DNA from: Paraspadella gotoi
Taxonomy: Eukaryota; Animalia; Chaetognatha
DNA: 64,000 nt
Assembly (NCBI GenBank): GCA_051294375.1
Contig: CM119270.1
Span: 897,238-961,237, forward strand
Direction: 5' to 3'
Below the pieces are notes generated by a model that was not told where the DNA came from, did not search any database, and saw nothing but the letters and a program-made list of their open reading frames with translations. Of this stretch, positions 13,289 to 57,250 are shown piece after piece; the stretch's first letter is position 1, and every line of letters begins with the position of its first letter. Both the position numbers and the translations under genes were made by a program.

Positions 13289-14040
13289 AAAAAAACATTA
13301 CCACGGCGACAAAGTAAAAACCCCGCGTAAATAAAATGAGAAAACGAGAGAAAAAAAAAGAAAAAAAAGAGAAAAGTTATTATAATAAATTGAAAAGGGA
13401 AATAAAGAAAAAAAAACACATCGAAGGAAAGAATTTGTTTTTCGCGCCAAAGTTTTTTCTCGTTTGTGAAGAGAATAGAATAAAATTCACGTGAAAATTA
13501 TAAGCGGTACGTTCGAGGAGTTGCGCTACAGTAGCTTTATTTTGTATTTGCTTTTCTTAATGATATCGAGTAATGGTACCATGTATTAACTCAAAAAAGC
13601 AGGATTATCTAAGTAGGAGTGGAGGACACTTAAAAAAATACTGTAAAATGTTATACCACTTTATTGATAAGGAAGCTATAGGTATACTGGGAGTAAATAA
13701 ACGAGACTGTGAAAGAGTCTTGATTGGAAGCTTGAAAGGTCCTGCTATGTAAGGAGGGAGTCTTTAAACCATCATAGCTTATCCAAGATAATTTATTTAC
13801 TATATAAATATAAAATTATTATATATATAAATAAATATATATATATATTGTAGTAGGGCATAGCAAAGTTCACCCCGCCTATAAGCAATGACGACCTTCA
13901 GTGAGGGTGGAGTGATGAAAAGATTGAGTGATTGAACATTATTTTTTTGCTGCCTATGGACATATAATTAATGAATTTTAAATCCATTTAAAAATTTTTT
14001 TAGCATAACAGTATATAGGCAAATTCAATTATTTATGTAT

Positions 14041-14398
14041 GTAATATCCTTATAAAATCGTCAAAATTTCAAAATAATTTTTTTTTTATTTTTTAAGAAA
14101 CGTGATTTTGGATTCGCTGTAAAAAACTACAGAAACTTGTTTATAAAATGTTATAATGATATTTTAATGTTTAGACCACAAAAAATGACTTAAAACGTTT
14201 TAACATATATAGAGTTTCTACTACAGAGAATAAAAAAGTCCGGAATTTTCAGTTTTTTTCTTATTTTAAACATTGAAGATGACAGAATTTTGATAACATG
14301 TTTAATATTTTTGATTCACTTTTTATGAAGAATCTGAATCTTTATAAAGTTTTAATAAATTATTTTAAAAAATTTACTATTTTATAAGGATATATTAC
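14041..14398. mobile_element. AT-rich MITE (non-autonomous DNA transposon), copy 1
   Basis: Terminal inverted repeats gtaatatccttataaaat ... attttataaggata(ta)ttac. A second copy lies in the opposite orientation at 27761-28109. Confidence 0.7.
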
Positions 14399-14560
14399 TA
14401 CCGAATATATTATATTTTACTATTTCTGTTCCCGGACGATAATATGAACAAAATATTTTTTCTAACTAGTTAATCATACTATCATCACATCTAAATATCA
14501 TTGTTCGATCATATTCAAAATAATTTTTTGTTCTTGAGTGCTCCACTCTAACCTCAGTCG

Positions 14561-26715: not shown

Positions 26716-35692
<8,977 letters not shown>

Positions 35693-38755: not shown

Positions 38756-40026
38756 ATGGCTTCCTTGGTGACGACGACTCGCTTCCTCTTCCTCTTCCCT
38801 TCTTCTCGAACTTCTCTGCTCCTTCCCAGATTATTGACTCGTCCTCCGCTGCGCTGCTTTGCCGCAGCCGCCGCCGCCTCGCCGTTTAGTTTGAGACGTT
38901 CCCGCCTCAAAGCGGAAGGAGGCGTCGCTAAGGTCGCGGCGGCGAAGCCGCTGACGCTAAACGGGAATCGTTGGACGAGAGGCGCGGCGACAGCAGGAGG
39001 AAGCGGCGTCGCAGAGACGGCTTCCGCGACTGCGGCGTCAGCAACGAAGGAAAATAGCGACAATAACAACGAAAACCTCTCGTTAAAAGCGACAATATCG
39101 TCGCCGTCTTTATCTGCATCCACAACAACAACAACAACTACAACTACCATCAAGGAAAACATTTTAACAATCCCCAACGTTTTAACGGGAGCTCGGATGG
39201 CGTTATCCCCCTTGATCGGTTACCTCGTTCTCATCCACAGCTATGGACCGGCCATGGTGATCTTCGTCTTCGCTGGACTCACCGACATGTTGGACGGATA
39301 CATTGCGAGAAATTTCAAAAATCAGTCGTCGACTCTCGGCATGGCGATCGACCCTCTGGCGGACAAACTACTAATGACCGTGATGGCGGTGAGTCTCTCC
39401 ATGGTCAATCTCCTCCCGCCGACGTTGACGCTACTCATCGTCACGCGTGACGTTCTTCTCATCGCTTCGGGTTTTGCCCTCCGCTGGTTCTCATTACCTC
39501 CGCCTATGACTATAAAACGGTGAGGAGAGAGCGACTGGGTGGTTTTTCTCCAGTTTGAGTTTCAAGTTCCCAAAACAGTCCATCCGTTTTATTCTTTGTG
39601 ACACTAACTTAGCGAAAGGTGACAAAAATCGTGACAATGTTAAGGAGGAAGCCCAGAATGTAATTAAATTTTTCACTTATCAGATACTTCGACATCTCCC
39701 TCCCTTCGGCCGAAGTCTACCCTACTTTCACCAGCAAATTGAACACTGTTGTGCAAATCTCCACCATCGCCGCTTCTCTCGCGGCACCGCTTTTTGGTTT
39801 CATTGACGCCACATGGTTGCGCGCCCTGTGGGTCCTCACCGGCGTCACCACTGTCGTTTCTGGCGCGAGTTATGCCTACAATGGCGCCAATTGCTTCAAG
39901 ATACTTTCAGAAAAAGAGAATGTAATTAGACATGGCTCTGGGGCATCCATGAAGGCCGTACGAGTGGCTGGAGGGGTCGGGTTTGCTCTTGGACTGATGT
40001 TTGTGATGTGGAAAGTGACTAGTTGA
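38756..40026 (+). CDS. CRLS1: Cardiolipin synthase (CMP-forming), copy A; exons 38756-39519, 39684-40026
   Basis: Arg/Ser/Leu-rich mitochondrial-type presequence, ENILTIPNVLT, CDP-alcohol phosphotransferase motif DMLDGYIAR...G..IDPLADK, RDV, SKLNT. Confidence 0.93.
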
Positions 40027-40778
40027 TGTGATTTGTGTTAGATTTCAGAACATTTAAAGTGGAAAAGATTAAAAAGTTTTAATGACTAAAGCAAATACAA
40101 GTCGAGTAGTTTTCCAACTGCATCAATTATTCAACTATTTTTTGCAAAAATCTTCCGAACCATGTGATAATCGCTAATTTAAATTATTATATATTGCTAT
40201 ATGTCAAAAAGTGTTTTTTGATATTTCAATTTTTTTAATTGATTCTGATAGACGAAAGATGTAATTAAAACTTTTTAAAATTTTGAAGTTTTATTACTGA
40301 AAATTAGAAAAAATTTCTAACATCATCGTTAGATGATGATGATGATTATTATTTTTTTCAGGTTTTGCCCAATTTTGACCCACTTATCAAAATATTGAAA
40401 AAAGAATTGTATTTTGTGTAGACAACTTTTTATAAGCTATCTGAATCTGCTTTTAAATATACAAAATTCCAAAAAATTTTTGATATTTCCCTTCTATAAA
40501 TAAATATTTAAAAAATAATTATTTGTGCTTATACCCATTTTAAAAATAATTTGAAAATTAAAAGTTTTTTGAGAAAAGTATTAAGTTTCATTTGGAAAAA
40601 TTCTGACCCACTAACATAAATTAAATTAAATTAAATTAACATAGATTGGCCCTAGTATAGGACCAGCGCCAGCTGACAAACGACTGCCTTTTTTTAATTT
40701 TTGTTGTGTTTTAATAAATAGTTTTGTTTTTTAATATTTTTTATAGTTCCTGCTTTGGCCATTCTTGTTGCAAATAAA

Positions 40779-41997
40779 ATGTTGACTTTAAGTGAAGAGG
40801 CGCAACAGTGGCAAAAGAAACCTGTAAGTGATACTAAAAAGGATGAAAATAACAATAAAATTGTTTCATCCACATTCAACTCGACAAAATCGTCACCATT
40901 TTTATCCTCTTGCTCACCAACAAAAATCACAGGAAGAAGTGAAAATATTTTTACCATCCCCAATTTGTTAACAAGTGCAAGGATGGTATTATCTCCGTTT
41001 ATTGGCCATCTCGTTCTCACCCACAACTATAAGCCGGCCTTGGCTTTCCTTGCCATAGCTGGTTTCACAGATATGTTAGATGGTTACATTGCCAGAAATT
41101 TTAAAAATCAGGTTTTTACAATTTAAAATATTTGACTATTAACATGACCTAATAAAATAATAATAACCAAAATTGATGAAATGAAATATAAATTAAAAAA
41201 TGTATGTTTTACCCTCATCCTTGTCAGTCATCGACTCTTGGTATGGCAATTGACCCTCTGGCAGACAAGGTCCTCATGACTATTATGACCGTGTCTCTCT
41301 CACTCATTGACCTCTTTCCGCTGACACTGATGCTAACCATTGTAACGCGTGATGTTGTTCTTATATCCTCTTGGTTTGCTCTCCGCTGGTTCTCATTGCC
41401 TTCCCCCATGACCTTTAAACGGTGAGGCGAGGAGGGTGCGTAAGGGAGAGTGAATGATAAAGAAAGTAGTGACAGGAGAGTGAAAATTCAAATTAATATG
41501 ACAGGGAAAGAGAACTGTTTTTAGTTACTACTTGATAGCTTCTTTATAGCTAAAGAAACTCATTTTTTTTAATATTTATAATTATAATTTAATTATTACA
41601 ATTAATTATAATTACAACTATTATAATTTACAATTACTTCCAATTATCCTTTGATAATCAATTACTCATCAGATTCTTTGATATCTCTCTCCCATCGGCC
41701 GAAGTCTACCCTACCTTCTTCAGCAAACTCAACACCCACGTTCAGATCTACACCATCGCCGCTTCTCTCGCGGCGCCGCTTTTTGGTGCCATTGACGCCC
41801 CATGGTTGCGCGCCCTGTGGGTCCTCACCGGCGTCACCACTGTCGTCTCTGGCGCGAGTTACGCCTACAATGGCGCCAGTTGCTTTAAGATTCTATCCAA
41901 AAAGAAAGACGACTTGTCGGTGCGGACCGTGCGAGTAGCCGGTGGGGTCGCCTTCACCGTAGGGCTGTTGTTCCTGATGTGGAGATCGACTTGTTGA
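40779..41997 (+). CDS. CRLS1: Cardiolipin synthase, tandem copy B; exons 40779-41111, 41228-41421, 41673-41997 (start codon uncertain)
   Basis: ENIFTIPNLLT, DMLDGYIARNFKNQ|SSTLGMAIDPLADK, SKLNT. The frame is intact across two GT-AG introns. Confidence 0.85.
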
Positions 41998-42465
41998 TAG
42001 AAGTTTATTAAATTGTTTTTGAGTAGGACTGAAATTCTCAATGGTTTCGTTTCGAAAAGGATTGGACTAGTCCAGAAAGTTTTCTGTTACATAATTGAGG
42101 GGATTTTTTAAGCCCTGCAATTTTGTATTTTTTTACAATTGGTTATTGCTATTTTACATACAGTTGATCTTTTGATTAACCGACAGTAGAACAGTTTTGT
42201 TGTGTTATATGAACGTATTATTTGACGTAAATGAGTGGAAGGGCAAGTTTTAAAAGTTGCAAATAATTAAAAGTAATATCTATCCCACACAAAACGCTTT
42301 GGCGCTTTTTTCTTTTTTCCCACGGTTTTTATCCTTTTATGTTTTTTTTATATTTTCTAGGTAGTAATTACCCTTTCTGAAAAAAAAAAATAATCTCCCA
42401 CCCCCCCCTTAAATGTACCGCAATTCGTGTTATGCCCCGTCGTCGTCGTCGTCTTAAAACCGGAA

Positions 42466-52300: not shown

Positions 52301-55300
52301 GGCGGCGCCGGGCTCTCGCGGGGCCGCTTCGCCGAGCTCGAGAATCTCAAGGAGGTGGAGGAGGAAGAGGACGAGGAGAGAGGGACGAACCGTTTGGCGC
52401 CGCCCGAGCCTCACACCCCGGGCTTCGGACGTCTCAAGGTCGACGATCATTACTCGTCGGCAAGGGCCGATGATCGATCCCACGCGCTTCTGGTGCCGAC
52501 AACGCCGGGAGCGCCGGTTTCCAAACCTCCGGCGCCGGCATTCGTTCCGTTCTCCGATGAAGAAGCGCCGGCCAAGCTAGCGGCGCCGATTTCTGCCATA
52601 TCCCAAGTGCGGCGCCCATTGGGGCCGCTCGCCGATCCGGCGCCGTTTATCGAAGACGAAGAGATGCTGCCGTCGCCCGACTACGACGACGACGAGGATT
52701 ACCTTGGAGACTATCTTCAAGACAAAGAGACGACGAAGAATAATTTGTCAGTTCTTTTCAACGCGGACGCGATACCGAAAGCCGACACAGACGAGTCGGC
52801 CGAGCCCAGTCGAGCGGGGGAGACCGACGAAGAGCCGACAAGTGGCGATGTGCATTCGGTCATGGACACTCACATGCAGGTAAAAAAGAGGAGAGTGCTT
52901 CAGCATTATTATATCGAAAAAGGTTTAGTGTTTCTTTTTTATCCCCCTTTTCCCCATTCGTAACGCTTAGTTCCAAGATCAGGGTTCAGTCAGAGACTGA
53001 ATTTTGTTTTATTACCCTAGTACAGGGTAGTAAATGAGCAACTGAAAAAGCCAAAAAATCAAAAAGTTTGAGTCGGATCTGCCTACGATAATTATTTGGT
53101 CAACTGGCATAATTTGGTTAATTGACGTAATTTGCTCAACTGGCATAATTTGCTTAACTGGCATAATTTTGTCAACTTGTAGAACTTAGTCACTTTAATA
53201 ATTTGGTCAACTGGCATAATTTGTCAACTGGCATAATTTTCTCAATCAATCAGAGAGAGAGAGAGAGAGAGAATTTGTAAAAAATTCAAATAAATGTCTT
53301 TTGGTTTTTCAATTTAAACTCTTTTTCACTCGCCCGATTCCATCGAAACTTTATATCCAGCTCAATCACACACTTTCCTACCCACACACAAAATTTCATT
53401 TTAATCAAACCATCCAATCACGAGTAATTGGAGTTATTATACATGTATTTATTTATTTATTTATCATAATTAGAGGTTCTGATATGATAATAATGATTTA
53501 CCGACAAGATTTTGGGGTGGAACCGACGGATCGACAAAGTGGATTATAGAGTCGGAATCTGCTGATAAGCGGATCGACTAAAAATATGTGAACGTAAACT
53601 GAAAATTATTTCTTTCTTTATTTCCTTCTTTCCTTAAGGCCTACGAGGCGGCGACGTTTAATCTCGATTTGGATCAGACCGTCGCCCTCGGCGATCGTCT
53701 TCCCGAGATCGAATGCACGGTCATGATCGATTCCTCGGACCCCTGGAGCCCCAAGCTCATCGAGAGCATTCTGGCTAAAACGGGCACGCCACTCGAGATC
53801 CGTCAGGGCTACGTGGAGCTGGAAGCGGCGGGGCCGTCGAGAATCGTCGTGGGGAAGACTTACAATTAGAGGAGAAGAATACGTCGTTGAGAAGCAGATC
53901 GGCGAGGGAGGGTGAGGGAGTGAGGATTAGGGAGGGTTGGGATGAGGGAGTGAGGATTAGGGAGTGAGGAATTAGAGGAGGGAGGGTGAGGGAGTAAGGA
54001 TTAGGGAGGAGGGTGAGGGAGTAAGGATTAGGGAGGGAGGGTGGAGGAGTAAGGAATTAGGGAGGGAGTGAGGATTAGGGAGGGGAGGGTAGAGGTAGGG
54101 AGGGTGAGGGAGTAAGGATTAGGGATCGAGGGTGAGGGAGTGAGGATTAGGGAGGGAGGGTGAGGGAGTAAGGATTAGGGATCGAGGGTGAGGGAGTGAG
54201 GCTCTTGAATGCGCTGATAAAGACTTGAAACAGAGTCGAAACATGTCTGTTTTTTATGTCAAATAAAATTGTTGTTGTAACAAAACAAATATTTTTGCTA
54301 ATCTCATAACACAACGAAACGAAAGGATACCATCAAATTCTAATTCTATTTTTTGTTTTCTCTTTCTCTCTTTTGCTTTCTCTTTTTCGTTCTCTACTTC
54401 TTCTCTTCCTCATTATTTTTGTAGTTGTTAGTTTCTTAAACGCTTGTTTGTTAGTCTTTCATAAACTAATGTCTTTTTTAACATTCGTTCCTTCTAATAT
54501 TAATTTTTAAATTTTTTAAAATAATTTTTTTATTTGGTTTTATTCATTTTTTTCATTCATTCGGTTTTATTTTCATTTTGAAGAGACAGTAATTATTGTT
54601 ATGTGTTAATGACAGAACCGTTCAATATAAGCAGTCCCTGAGCTTCGGATCAGGCTGTAACACCATGTTACAGGCAGGTTAAGCGCCCCGTCCCTCTTAA
54701 CTGCCAGACGACCACCGGGCTAGAACCCCGGACCTTTGGGTTGGGAGGCGAATGACTTGCCTCCGGCACCAATGGCCGCTGATGAACGGTTGGTGGATTT
54801 TAGTCCACCATACATCCCCCCCTCCCGTAGGGAGAAGTCTGTTGCGTCTCTTCAGTGAATTGTTGTTGTTGGTGGAAAGTTCGTCACCAAGTTGAGGCAT
54901 GTCGCCTGATGTGTTGTGGGCGGAAAGTGCATCGCCAGGTGAGGCATGTCGCCTGAAAGTGTTGTTGTTGCTGTTGTGTTCGGAAGTCGGGCTCACCAAT
55001 GAAGAGACAGTAATTATTGTTATGTGTTAATGACAGACCGTTCAATATAAGCAGTCCCTGAGCTTCGGATCAGGCTGTAACACCATGTTACAGGCAGCGT
55101 TAAGCGCCCCGTCCCTCTTAACTGCCAGACGACCACCGGGCTAGAACCCGGACCTTTGGGTTGGGAGGCGATATGACTTGCCTCCGGCACCAATGGCCGC
55201 TGATGAACGGTTGGTGGATTTTAGTCCACCATAATTTGCTTTTTTGTTTATTTTAAAAAGGGAAAGAAAAAGAGAGAAAAATTAAAATAAGAGGGATTAT

Positions 55301-57250
55301 TTATTTTTAGCTAAATTGAATATATATTATTGCATGAAAGGGCAAAAAAAAAGAAAGAGGTAAAAGCAAAGGGCGAAAAAAAGGAGAAAAAAGAAAGGGG
55401 GAAAGAAAAAAGGGAAAAGTGAAAAAGAAAAAAAGAAAACAGGAGGAGATAAAATAAAAGGAAGAAAAGAATAAGAGAGAGATTAGGATAGAAAAAAGAA
55501 GAAAATAACAAAAAAAAATTGGAGAAGAGAGAGAGGGGTAAAAATATGGTGAGAAGGGGAGAGGAGAATAAGAGAGAACAGAAAAAAAATAGTTTTTTTT
55601 TTTAAATTAAAGATTTCATACCAAAAAATGAAAAAAAAAACATTTGAAAATTAACCGACATTTAACCGTTAAAATAAAATATATTAACGGTTAAGTTAAA
55701 ATTATTTTTAACCGTTAATAACCGTTAACAGTTAACGGTTATCATGAACACTAGTGAGGATTAGGGAGGGAGGGTGAGGGAGTAAGGATTAGGGAGGGAG
55801 GAGTGAGGATAGGGTAGGGAGGGTGAGGTAGTAAGGTTAGGGAGGTGAGGGTGAGGGAGGTAGTAAGGATTAGGGAGGAGGGTGAGGTATAAGGATTAGG
55901 AGGTGAGGTGAGGTCGGGGGTCACGATTGTGTTTAGTTCAGATCTTCATTCATGAATTGTTGGTTTCTTGGTTAAGTCCGCCATAATGCTGAACTTCATC
56001 GTAATTATTGGTTAATTAACGCTTCCGTATACAAAACGAGTTCATTCCAACATCCATTGTTATAGTTGTCATTATGATTAGTAGTATGTATTTTTTATAC
56101 TCCTTCCAGCTTCGCCAAAGTCTTCGCCGCAGTCCGCGCCTCCACCGGGAAAACCATCTGTCTCAAGTTTCAAAAACCCGCGTGCCCATGGGAGTTTTAC
56201 GTCAGCACAGAGATTCGGCGCAGGTTGAAGAGGAGCGGTCGCTCGTTCCGACGAGACGATTTCATGAACGTGGAGACGGCCTACTTCTCGCCCTCTGCGT
56301 CTTACTGCGTCAACGAGCTCGGCAAAGGTGTTGAGAGAGAGAGTTAGAGAGAGAGAGCTGGGTGGGGGTAAGAACATTAAGTTGAGTCTCTCAGGGTTGA
56401 AGAGTAGCTGAAAGCTTTGAAATGCAGCTCATTCAGTCGTCCACAGAAATATTAGATTCACTAAGTAGTTCGTCGACGCTTTTAAGCTCAAAGTGACTCG
56501 TGCTCAGCGTCAAATTTCCTTTCTCTCCCTCTTTCTTCGGCAGGCACCCTCCTTGAGATGGTCAACGCCTTCAAACGCGACGGCCCGTTCCATGTTCCCG
56601 AATCCTTGGCGCTGCTTCTGACGTTAGACCTCCTCGTCACGGTGGAGCGTCTTCATTCGACTGGCATCATTCACGCCGACGTCAAGCCTGACAATTTCCT
56701 CTTCGTCGCCGACGCACTGCCGACGCCCAAGGCGTTGCGAGACGCGGCGTCGTTGTCATCTCAGAAAAGCCTTGACGACCCCCTCACCGCCCGGCGCTCC
56801 CTCATCAAACTGATTGATTTCGGCCGATGCATCGATTTAACCTCTTTTCCCGCGGGGACGAATTTTATGGCCAAAGTCAAAACGGACGGGTATCAGTGCC
56901 AGGAGATGATCGAGGGTCGACCGTGGACGTTCCAACTCGACCTTTTCGGGCTGGTCTCTTGCGTATATGTCGTCCTTAGGGGCGATTATCCCAAGTGGAA
57001 GCGGAACCAACTCGGTCGCGCCATTTTAACGCCATTGGGGGTCGGGCACGGACAGTTGCGGGGCTACCGGCACCCCAAGGTGTGGCAGACGCTGGAGAGA
57101 ACGCTGATCGGGATCCCTGACTGTGACTTGATTCCAGATTTGAAGCCTTTGATCCAGGAGACGAGAGAGACTCTGGCAGAGATGGTTGATGACTACGAAA
57201 AGAATTACGAGACTTTTTGTCGTCTGCTGAGACAGGCGCGGTTGGTGTAA
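49312..57250 (+). CDS. BUB1: Spindle checkpoint kinase BUB1; exons 49312-50479, 50768-51168, 51322-51532, 51762-52043, 52176-52879, 53639-53911, 56110-56327, 56544-57250; apparent frameshift near 53865
   Basis: TPR (PLEVWWRYILW, LALFYTNWA), GLEBS-like SPEETR, CD1 SPTIN...LFN, internal KEN, ABBA-like FAIFKD, LxxIxE (LLTIYE), and kinase motifs GEGGFAKV, PWEFYV, IIHADVKPDN, LIDFGRCID, CQEMIEGRPWTFQLD. Confidence 0.93.
53089..53240 (+). repeat. 18-bp tandem repeat (ATAATTTGGTCAACTGGC) in BUB1 intron 5
   Basis: Several degenerate units visible. Confidence 0.85.
53912..54201 (+). repeat. G-rich minisatellite (GGGTGAGGGAGT[A/G]AGGATTAGGGA); resumes at about 55754-55915
   Basis: Directly visible. 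It is interrupted by a 1.55-kb composite insertion. Confidence 0.9.
54202..54340 (+). mobile_element. Penelope-like pLTR fragment with a degenerate minimal hammerhead motif (about 54214-54247)
   Basis: CTGATAA-GAC-ttgaaacaga-GTC-GAAACATGTC, followed by aataaaattgttgttg...aacacaacgaa, similar to 47415-47520. Confidence 0.55.
54631..54704 (-). ncRNA. Type-P5 twister-like ribozyme in the 3' LTR
   Basis: GCAGUU AA GAGG GA CGG GGCGCU UAA CCU GC CUGUAAC-AUGGU-GUUACAG CCUGA UCCGAAGC UCAGG GACUGC. P2 is one nucleotide short. Confidence 0.65.
54708..54779 (-). promoter_or_regulatory. 72-nt tRNA-like module (internal Pol III A/B boxes) in the TRIM LTR; second copy at about 55129-55200
   Basis: Acceptor-like stem GCGGCCA/TGGTCGT, A-box-like TGGTGCCGGAGG, and T-arm CCGGG-GTTCTAG-CCCGG. 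No proper anticodon arm. Confidence 0.65.
55051..55125 (-). ncRNA. Type-P5 twister-like ribozyme in the 5' LTR
   Basis: Same fold as 54631-54704, but the P2 strand reads CGCU and pairs imperfectly with GAGG. Confidence 0.6.
55650..55753 (-). mobile_element. Probable DNA-transposon end (hAT-like) with subterminal AACCGTT repeats
   Basis: The minus strand starts TAGTGTTCATGATAACCGTTAAC, with clustered direct and inverted accgttaa/ttaacggt motifs. The G-rich satellite resumes just outside it. Confidence 0.4.

What the first reader, a model, noticed from the sequence alone, without database searches (positions are those of the whole stretch)
54579..55233. Miniature LTR retroelement with a tRNA-like Pol III promoter and a twister ribozyme in each LTR (candidate twister retrozyme)
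Seen: two LTRs of about 235 bp, a tRNA-Trp-like PBS, a PPT, a 4-bp TSD (ATTT) and a non-coding interior of about 185 bp. In the element's sense orientation each LTR has a 72-nt tRNA-like unit followed 3 nt later by a circularly permuted (P5) twister fold, in which loop UCCGAAGC pairs with GA-CGG. Established: TRIMs with Pol III gene-derived LTRs exist (Cassandra with 5S; Helenus with tRNA-like LTRs), and plant retrozymes are TRIM-like elements with a hammerhead in each LTR that yield circular RNAs. Inference: Pol III transcription followed by U|A cleavage at 55102/55101 and 54681/54680 would release a 421-nt unit with 5'-OH and 2',3'-cyclic phosphate ends. That unit could be circularised and reverse-transcribed in trans. 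I do not recall a description of an animal LTR element combining all three features, but I could not check the literature. P2 is imperfect in both copies, from mutation or assembly error.
Basis: partly seen in the sequence, partly recalled or inferred. Interest (0 to 1): 0.92.

Follow-up and report, generated by a model that had tools for sequence, protein, structure and literature searches.

The report
Twister-ribozyme mini-retrotransposons in an animal
A high-copy, 655-base non-coding LTR retrotransposon of an animal carries in each terminal repeat a tRNA-like promoter followed by a twister-ribozyme fold that a second, divergent element family in the same window keeps through nine compensatory base-pair changes, so its RNA is predicted to cut itself into a 421-base unit that likely circularises and is copied by a helper retrotransposon, a route described so far (in the papers searched) only for plant elements with a different ribozyme.

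Summary
The anatomy is confirmed: two 234-nt LTRs (98% identical), ATTT TSD, tRNA-Trp PBS, PPT and a 187-nt non-coding interior, with many different insertion flanks and an empty-site contig in public runs. Rfam does not detect the twister in this copy. However, a blind descriptor scan found a second, BLAST-unrelated, multicopy element (27341-27080) with the same box A/box B-then-twister layout. It scores weakly against Rfam Twister-P5 (21.8 bits, E 0.037), and a model built from it alone finds both LTR twisters (E about 1e-5). Of 24 equivalent pairs, 9 change on both sides and none break, including a pseudoknot pair. Best reading: a Helenus-type TRIM that works like a plant retrozyme, with Pol III transcription, twister cleavage to a 421-nt unit lacking terminal repeats, circularisation, and reverse transcription by a tRNA-Trp-primed Gypsy. 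Cleavage, expression and circles are untested; P1 is minimal. By eye, two published wasp Helenus LTRs hold an unreported hammerhead in the same position, and at least one has a Trp PBS. New variant of a known kind.

The parts
54579..55233 (-). Element E1: full-length TRIM (LTR-PBS-interior-PPT-LTR), 655 nt, non-coding, lying between the N-terminal and kinase exons of a BUB1-like gene on the opposite strand
55000..55233 (-). 5' LTR, 234 nt, begins TA, ends CA
   Evidence: loose ends with many different flanks at 55234/55235
54579..54812 (-). 3' LTR, 234 nt
   Evidence: loose ends at 54578/54579 (195 contigs in X3) and 54812 (53 contigs in X3)
54575..54578 (+). Target-site duplication ATTT (left copy)
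   Evidence: empty-site contig joining 54572 to 55235 in X3
55234..55237 (+). Target-site duplication ATTT (right copy)
54986..54998 (-). Primer-binding site for tRNA-Trp (12 of 13 nt), 1 nt after the 5' LTR
   Evidence: compared with Fig. S2 of PMC10886601
54815..54826 (-). Polypurine tract, 12 nt, ending 2 nt before the 3' LTR
55129..55200 (-). tRNA-like unit of the 5' LTR (box A-like at 55192, box B-like at 55148); predicted Pol III promoter
   Evidence: not detected by ARAGORN or Rfam
54708..54779 (-). tRNA-like unit of the 3' LTR (box A-like at 54771, box B-like at 54727)
55050..55126 (-). Type-P5 twister fold of the 5' LTR; predicted cut 55102|55101; one extra base in P2
   Evidence: 27.6 bits, E 2.4e-5 with the E2-only model
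54630..54705 (-). Type-P5 twister fold of the 3' LTR: P5 6 bp, P2 3 bp, general-base G 54692, PK2 CGG/CCG, P1 minimal, predicted cut 54681|54680, PK1 GC/GC, P3 8 bp, P4 5 bp, loop UCCGAAGC
   Evidence: (30.5 bits, E 3.5e-6)
54681..55101 (-). Predicted 421-nt monomer between the two cuts; no terminal repeat, no T4 run
   Evidence: inferred product
54791..54810 (-). 7-bp hairpin at the LTR start (also at 55231-55212); a similar hairpin opens E2
27080..27341 (-). Element E2: 262-nt divergent relative of the E1 LTR (123 of 223 aligned positions identical), apparently a solo LTR, multicopy, between the first two exons of a kinase gene on the opposite strand
27137..27219 (-). Type-P5 twister fold of E2; general-base G 27205, predicted cut 27192|27191; box A-like at 27284 and box B-like at 27241 upstream
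   Evidence: (RF02684, 21.8 bits, E 0.037, below the gathering score 37.6)

Best explanation
E1 is a high-copy non-coding LTR retrotransposon (a Helenus-type TRIM) whose LTR holds a tRNA-like unit followed by a type-P5 twister fold; it is likely transcribed by Pol III, is predicted to self-cleave once in each LTR, and the 421-nt product would be circularised and reverse-transcribed by a helper Gypsy element. Steps: (1) Shown: LTRs, TSD, PBS, PPT, dispersed copies, empty site. (2) Shown as structure, not as activity: the twister fold, conserved with covariation in family E2. (3) Inferred: Pol III starts at the tRNA-like unit of the 5' LTR and, meeting no T4 run, reads through the 3' LTR twister. 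[quoted passage not shown] (5) Inferred: this unit has no repeated R region, so normal strand transfer is impossible; a host ligase would close it, and a tRNA-Trp-primed reverse transcriptase running round the circle would rebuild both LTRs, and with them an upstream promoter. (6) Inferred: the helper is a CsRn1-like Gypsy (tRNA-Trp PBS, 4-bp TSD).
For: TRIM anatomy and mobility. Twister: every element of the Rfam RF02684 consensus printed is present; the eight single-stranded core positions are identical in E1 and E2; 24 equivalent pairs give 15 unchanged, 9 two-sided changes, 0 one-sided, 0 broken (pairs assigned by hand). The PK2 pair reads C-G in E1, U-A in E2 and G-C in the Rfam consensus. 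The E2-only model ranks both E1 twisters far above the next match (E 3.5e-6 and 2.4e-5 against 0.82; rough calibration), and its best match among 27 viral loci is L002, the one Rfam-validated Twister-P5 (E 0.029). Most E2 copies have a G-C pair where the window copy has G-U in P1 (484,033 of 496,445 depth at 27194 in X3). Natural twisters tolerate P1 and P2 imperfections but not pseudoknot or catalytic changes (PMC11662667, section 32 part 1), and here the latter are intact. Promoter: box A-box B spacing is 44 nt in E1 and 43 nt in E2; 13% of X3 depth has a variant at 54765 that puts an A in box A; no T4 in E1 or E2. The no-R-region argument for circles is the published retrozyme model (PMC4918200, passage). 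The CsRn1 lineage has a tRNA-Trp PBS and a typical 4-bp TSD (PMC3630058, passage).
Against: No Rfam twister hit for E1 at E up to 10; E2's hit is below the gathering score. P1 of E1 is at most 1 bp, and cleavage without P1 is described as inefficient (PMC8501958, passage); the CHiTA tolerance data concern type-P1 permutes, not P5. The minimum-energy fold of the twister region takes a competing register over P1/P2, with z only -1.5. Most E1 copies have a weaker P2 than this copy. The predicted circle is only 53% paired, z -1.6, against more than 70% for published retrozyme RNAs. No RNA evidence: the run guessed to be RNA (X8) carries many genomic flanks, and its LTR-to-interior depth ratio is 9.9 against 4.7 and 6.6 in the DNA runs, the opposite of monomer enrichment (contig depths are a poor measure). 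The covariation rests on two families only. No helper element was seen; none was searched for beyond the window's ORF list, because no genome is held.
Confidence: 0.55

Rival explanations
1. Leaky 3'-end former, no circle. The twister is active but attenuated, and replaces the T-run that follows the tRNA-like unit in most Helenus LTRs. Transcripts that escape the 5' cut and are cut in the 3' LTR keep about 97 nt repeated at both ends and are reverse-transcribed by ordinary strand transfer.
For: Minimal P1 and weak P2 in most copies; competing fold; in most published animal Helenus LTRs a T-rich tract follows the tRNA-like unit where this element has the ribozyme (by eye); the predicted circle is not strongly structured.
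Against: Both twisters have the same local context, so only chance would spare the 5' one; pseudoknots and catalytic bases are perfect in both families; plant LTR elements with a ribozyme in each LTR do accumulate circles (PMC7761336, passage).
Confidence: 0.25
2. Passenger. A tRNA-promoter SINE with a twister (like the schistosome tRNA-plus-hammerhead repeats) inserted into an ancestral LTR; the promoter is used but the ribozyme is now inactive or irrelevant.
For: Kojima proposes SINE insertion as the origin of Helenus (PMC10886601); tRNA-promoter-plus-hammerhead SINEs exist in Schistosoma (PMC6765202, passage); no Rfam hit for E1.
Against: Two families only 55% identical keep every pair and every core base, with nine two-sided changes, which decay would not produce.
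Confidence: 0.12
3. The fold is a conserved non-catalytic structure (packaging or primer-placement signal) that only resembles twister.
For: Sub-threshold or absent Rfam scores; pairs were assigned by hand after seeing the consensus.
Against: Both pseudoknots, GA, UAA and the 8-nt loop occur in twister order; 0 hits in 30 window shuffles; E2 was found blind and matches RF02684 over the whole model.
Confidence: 0.05

Closest known systems
Helenus TRIMs (TRIMp3; Kojima 2024, PMC10886601)
   Same: Under 1.3 kb, two LTRs each with a tRNA-like box A/box B unit, PBS, PPT, non-coding interior, 4-bp TSD in animals, Gypsy-type PBS.
   Different: No ribozyme is reported in the paper (twister 0 mentions). 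No twister loop motif ccgaagc in its sequence file, and none seen by eye in the animal entries. E1 lacks the T-rich tract after the tRNA-like unit. Helenus is probably polyphyletic, so this is a structural class, not shown kinship.
Helenus-2_SyJa and Helenus-2_SyUm (Synergus wasps, same paper)
   Same: By eye, a type III hammerhead with complementary loops lies just 3' of box B in the LTR; Helenus-2_SyJa is the one Helenus listed under tRNA-Trp in Fig. S2, and Helenus-2_SyUm has the same PBS start; 4-bp TSD.
   Different: Hammerhead, not twister; about 1,040 nt; the interior contains T4 runs; the ribozyme is not mentioned by the author and was not run through any program here.
Plant LTR retrozymes (Cervera 2016, PMC4918200)
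   Same: Non-coding LTR element, a self-cleaving ribozyme in each LTR, PBS, PPT, 4-bp TSD, Gypsy-dependent, monomer without R region.
   Different: Plants; type III hammerhead; tRNA-Met primer; 300-400-nt LTRs; no tRNA-like promoter described in the passages seen; circles shown there, not here.
Metazoan non-LTR retrozymes and schistosome tRNA-plus-hammerhead repeats (PMC7761336, PMC6765202)
   Same: Animal; ribozyme-processed monomers; in Schistosoma a Pol III promoter precedes the ribozyme.
   Different: Type I hammerhead, tandem repeats, stated to lack LTR, PBS and PPT; single copies lose the promoter, whereas an LTR regenerates it.
Twister variants of Perere-3/RTE non-LTR retrotransposons (PMC8501958)
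   Same: Twister with weak or variable P1 in an animal retroelement.
   Different: One ribozyme at the 5' end of an autonomous LINE; not an LTR element, not in two copies.
Rfam RF02684 Twister-P5
   Same: Order P2'-GA-PK2-P1-UAA-P2-GC-P4-loop.
   Different: E1 and E2 add a P3 hairpin, keep a closed P5, have a 1-2 bp P1 and swap one PK2 pair; E1 has no score, E2 scores 21.8 against a gathering score of 37.6.

Membership tests
TRIM / Helenus | Two LTRs, under about 1.3 kb, non-coding interior | tested here: met
   655 nt, LTRs 98.3% identical, longest ATG ORF 67 codons
TRIM / Helenus | PBS and PPT | tested here: met
   tRNA-Trp PBS 12 of 13 nt; 12-nt PPT
TRIM / Helenus | 4-bp TSD (animal Helenus) and dispersed copies | tested here: met
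   ATTT; diverse flanks at exact ends; one empty-site contig. TSDs of other copies not seen.
TRIM / Helenus | tRNA-like sequence with box A and GGTTC box B in the LTR | tested here: met
   Box B GGTTC present, box A imperfect, spacing 44 nt; no ARAGORN or Rfam tRNA call
TRIM / Helenus | Functional Pol III promoter | not testable with these tools
   Needs transcription assays; also unvalidated for Helenus itself
Twister ribozyme, type P5 | Rfam RF02684 score at or above 37.6 bits | tested here: not met
   E1 no hit; E2 21.8 bits, E 0.037
Twister ribozyme, type P5 | Catalytic G and A, UAA at the cut, loop U-NNN-A-A-G-C | tested here: met
   8 of 8 core positions present and identical in E1 and E2
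Twister ribozyme, type P5 | Both pseudoknots, P2 and P4 pair, with covariation | tested here: met
   24 pairs, 9 two-sided changes, 0 broken; two families only. 5' LTR copy has a disturbed P2.
Twister ribozyme, type P5 | P1 stem | tested here: inconclusive
   E1 at most 1 bp; E2 2 bp, Watson-Crick in most copies; P1 reported dispensable or low-efficiency when absent
Twister ribozyme, type P5 | Site-specific self-cleavage | not testable with these tools
   Needs in vitro assay
LTR retrozyme (plant type) | Hammerhead ribozyme in each LTR | tested here: not met
   No hammerhead hit; the ribozyme fold is twister
LTR retrozyme (plant type) | Ribozyme in each LTR delimiting a monomer with PBS and PPT; 4-bp TSD | tested here: met
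   421-nt unit between predicted cuts
LTR retrozyme (plant type) | Abundant circular RNA in vivo | tested here: inconclusive
   Only contigs available; the one possible RNA run shows no monomer enrichment and may be DNA
Gypsy CsRn1-dependent element | Autonomous partner with the same PBS in the genome | not testable with these tools
   No genome held; inferred from PBS and TSD type only

The most novel reading that the evidence does not exclude
Animals have an overlooked class of LTR retrozymes: Pol III-promoted TRIMs, primed by tRNA-Trp and mobilised by CsRn1-like Gypsy elements, in which the ribozyme is an interchangeable part (twister-P5 in at least two families of this genome, type III hammerhead in wasp Helenus-2), and which replicate through small circular RNAs. 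They would be the first LTR elements with a twister and a genomic source for twister-bearing viroid-like circles.
Probability: 0.4. Interest if true: 0.9.

Novelty: new variant of a known kind. Interest (0 to 1): 0.82.

Why it matters
Reviews state that animal retrozymes lack LTRs, PBS and PPT (PMC7761336; PMC11722881), and the only retroelement role found for twister in these searches is at the 5' end of non-LTR elements. This element would close both gaps. It also offers an answer to how a Pol III-promoted TRIM defines its RNA ends when every signal occurs in both LTRs, and it makes the circular-template model of LTR reverse transcription testable in an animal with a 421-nt, very abundant, apparently still polymorphic element. 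A twister that Rfam misses, in two families within 64 kb, suggests that eukaryotic P5 twisters with short P1 and swapped pseudoknot pairs are undercounted.

Tried and rejected
Rfam cmscan: no twister, tRNA or hammerhead hit on E1 and nothing at gathering score in the whole window. ARAGORN: 0 genes. No genome is held, so copies, TSDs, tandem arrays and a helper could not be examined. Two twister-P5 pattern scans of viral contigs gave 49 loci; 20 were run through Rfam and 1 (L002) is a real Twister-P5; the script's pairing filter passed 2 of all 167 loci (L002, L004); too few to build an independent model, and their MAFFT alignment was poor (not used). The metagenome scan returned 118 loci from 54 of 64 parts of the collection: 0 passed the pairing filter, none resembled E1 by BLASTN beyond one 21-nt match, and 0 of the 100 given to model R1 matched (18 not searched). 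Runs of organisms B and C, a biofilm and a marine metatranscriptome hold small shares of the element; only X10 was laid (3 contigs), so no distribution or habitat is claimed. Joints in the contig tables that go back between LTRs were rejected as evidence of circles, because two identical LTRs produce them in DNA runs. A fine per-position variant table across the E1 twister core was not obtained, so selection on the core within the family is untested. E2's interior, PBS and PPT were not seen; its loose-end table lists 24 of 528 rows, so full-length E2 copies are neither shown nor excluded, and its TSD is unclear (ACAT left, ACGA right). The host was placed only as an animal: best named hit a mollusc LHFPL6-like protein at 44%, plus Integrator subunit 3. 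Three look-ups of earlier scan findings returned nothing. My recollection that Nasonia and zebrafish Helenus might carry twisters was not borne out by their published LTRs (by eye). The tRNA-like unit's resemblance to a tRNA-Gly anticodon arm is recalled and untested.
Full report
Observation. The element (E1) is as described. On the minus strand it reads 5' LTR 55233-55000, a 187-nt interior, and 3' LTR 54812-54579; the LTRs are 234 nt, 98.3% identical, and differ only by four single-base indels. ATTT flanks both ends. The PBS follows the 5' LTR after one base and matches 12 of 13 nt of the tRNA-Trp PBS printed in Fig. S2 of Kojima 2024; the PPT ends 2 nt before the 3' LTR. There is no ORF of note. 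The host is an animal, and E1 sits between Mad3/BUB1 and kinase exons on the opposite strand.

Mobility. Contigs of public runs cover the element far more deeply than its flanks. They break off at the LTR ends into many different AT-rich flanks: in X3, 91 and 104 contigs at 54578 and 54579, 53 at 54812 and 50 at 55235. One X3 contig joins 54572 to 55235, an empty site. Summed LTR depth is 4.7 to 9.9 times the interior's, which suggests many solo LTRs; these depths are not copy numbers. The best holders may include the sample behind the assembly.

The twister question. Rfam finds nothing on E1, even at E up to 10 on 201 nt. I obtained the RF02684 consensus from a real Twister-P5 in a viral contig (L002, 42.4 bits) and wrote a pairing descriptor from it. 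In 64 kb, both strands, it matched twice: the 3' LTR of E1 and an unrelated-looking site at 27205. It matched 0 of 20,000 LTR shuffles and 0 times in 30 window shuffles. The 5' LTR copy is missed because of its extra base in P2.

The second family. The site at 27205 lies in a 262-nt element, E2 (27341-27080, minus strand), that has no BLASTN similarity to E1 but aligns end to end at 123 of 223 positions. It has the same order of parts: opening hairpin, box A-like and box B-like motifs 43 nt apart, then the twister. E2 is multicopy with sharp ends and varied flanks in four runs; no interior was seen, so it is read as a solo LTR. It matches RF02684 over the whole model at 21.8 bits, E 0.037, below the gathering score. 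A model built from E2 alone finds the two E1 twisters at E 3.5e-6 and 2.4e-5, with the next match at 0.82 (rough calibration). With pairs assigned by hand, 24 equivalent pairs give 15 unchanged, 9 changed on both sides, none one-sided and none broken, spread over P2, P3, P4, P5 and the PK2 pseudoknot; the eight unpaired core bases are identical. The PK2 pair takes three forms in E1, E2 and the Rfam consensus. This is two families, not a deep alignment, but it is hard to explain without selection on the twister fold.

Weak points of the ribozyme. P1 is at most one G-U pair in E1 and two pairs in E2 (Watson-Crick in about 97% of X3 depth). At 54676 most copies differ from the window, giving a C-A mismatch or a bulge in P2. 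The minimum-energy fold prefers another register there. Published data say P1 and P2 imperfections are tolerated while pseudoknot and catalytic changes are not (type-P1 permutes), and that cleavage without P1 is inefficient. I put about 0.9 on the fold being a twister and about 0.8 on activity.

Promoter. The tRNA-like unit is degenerate and is not called by ARAGORN or Rfam. It has the GGTTC box B that defines Helenus, an imperfect box A at tRNA-like distance (the 44-nt tRNA spacing is recalled), and a stable fold. Three of the six box B-pattern matches in the window are these LTRs. Neither E1 nor E2 has a T4 run on the sense strand; 31% of shuffles also lack one, so this is weak.

Mechanism. 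Cuts at LTR position 132|133 in both LTRs give a 421-nt unit with PBS and PPT but no repeated end. The plant retrozyme model resolves this by circularisation, and I adopt it at 0.55 overall. The main rival (0.25) is an attenuated ribozyme that serves as a leaky 3'-end former, with singly cut linear RNAs as templates. Against the circle: the predicted circle is only 53% paired, and the one possible RNA run shows no enrichment of the interior. No step after the DNA anatomy was observed. The PBS and TSD types point to a CsRn1-like Gypsy helper; none was seen.

Comparison and novelty. E1 meets every testable Helenus criterion, fails the hammerhead criterion of plant retrozymes while sharing their layout, and fails the Rfam score criterion for Twister-P5 while meeting the core and pairing criteria. 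Eight searches listed no paper whose title or abstract start describes a twister in an LTR element or an animal LTR retrozyme; nine papers were then opened. Two reviews say animal retrozymes are non-LTR, and one mentions insect type III hammerhead elements as work in preparation. The library lacks most subscription journals and Repbase. Roth et al. 2014 and its lists were not seen, CHiTA's file of genetic contexts was not read, and bioRxiv supplements were closed; any of these could hold such elements.

A parallel in print. In Kojima's sequence file, Helenus-2_SyJa and Helenus-2_SyUm have, just after box B, what reads by eye as a complete type III hammerhead with complementary loops. The text does not mention it. 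Helenus-2_SyJa is the one Helenus listed under tRNA-Trp. This was not run through a program. If it holds, promoter-then-ribozyme LTRs primed by tRNA-Trp occur with two different ribozymes in two animal lineages.

What I saw of each paper. PMC10886601: main text parts 1-4 of 6, a term search, supplement parts 1 and 5-9 of 11, and two supplement term searches. PMC11662667: passages and section 32 part 1 of 2. PMC7761336, PMC6765202, PMC8501958, PMC4918200, PMC11722881, PMC3630058 and bioRxiv 10.1101/2022.07.19.500677: passages only. Others: search listings only. Twister chemistry, the labels general base and general acid, and the gene names BUB1-like and AAK1-like are from recall or Pfam domains, as marked.

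Verdict. Real feature, observation confirmed, interpretation partly supported. New variant of a known kind: a Helenus-type TRIM that likely works as a twister retrozyme. Interest 0.82.

Noticed in passing
window 27341-27080 (-): Second multicopy element family (E2) with the same tRNA-like-then-twister layout, between exons 1 and 2 of a kinase gene (AAK1-like by recall), opposite strand.
   Followed up: yes
PMC10886601 DataS1.fa, Helenus-2_SyJa-LTR and Helenus-2_SyUm-LTR: By eye, an unreported type III hammerhead with complementary loops just 3' of box B; tRNA-Trp-type PBS.
   Followed up: partly
window 54854-54846 and 55008-55000 (-): Nine nt of the interior are complementary to the last nine nt of the LTR, next to the PBS; they pair in the predicted circle and may bring PBS and PPT together.
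   Followed up: partly
window 54890-54909 and 54937-54956: Two 20-nt direct repeats in the interior, each a small hairpin, set in C/A-rich unpaired sequence; possible packaging or dimerisation signals.
   Followed up: no
window E1 and E2: Both elements lie antisense to their host genes, so the ribozyme would not cut the host pre-mRNA; only two cases.
   Followed up: no
window 13906-14549 and 28240-27617; 39322-40027 and 41224-41998; 1652-1945 and 4080-3785: Other dispersed or duplicated AT-rich repeats at 75-79% identity, the first next to E2.
   Followed up: no
window 53900-54200 and 55750-55915: A 14/28-nt G-rich satellite containing TTAGGG units flanks E1 on both sides; an 18-nt tandem array lies at 53094-53239.
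   Followed up: no
L002:147-214 (+): A Twister-P5 above gathering score with a P3 hairpin in a viral contig, just upstream of a ribosome-binding site and ATG; L004:151-198 (-) is a second candidate that passes the pairing filter but has no Rfam hit.
   Followed up: partly
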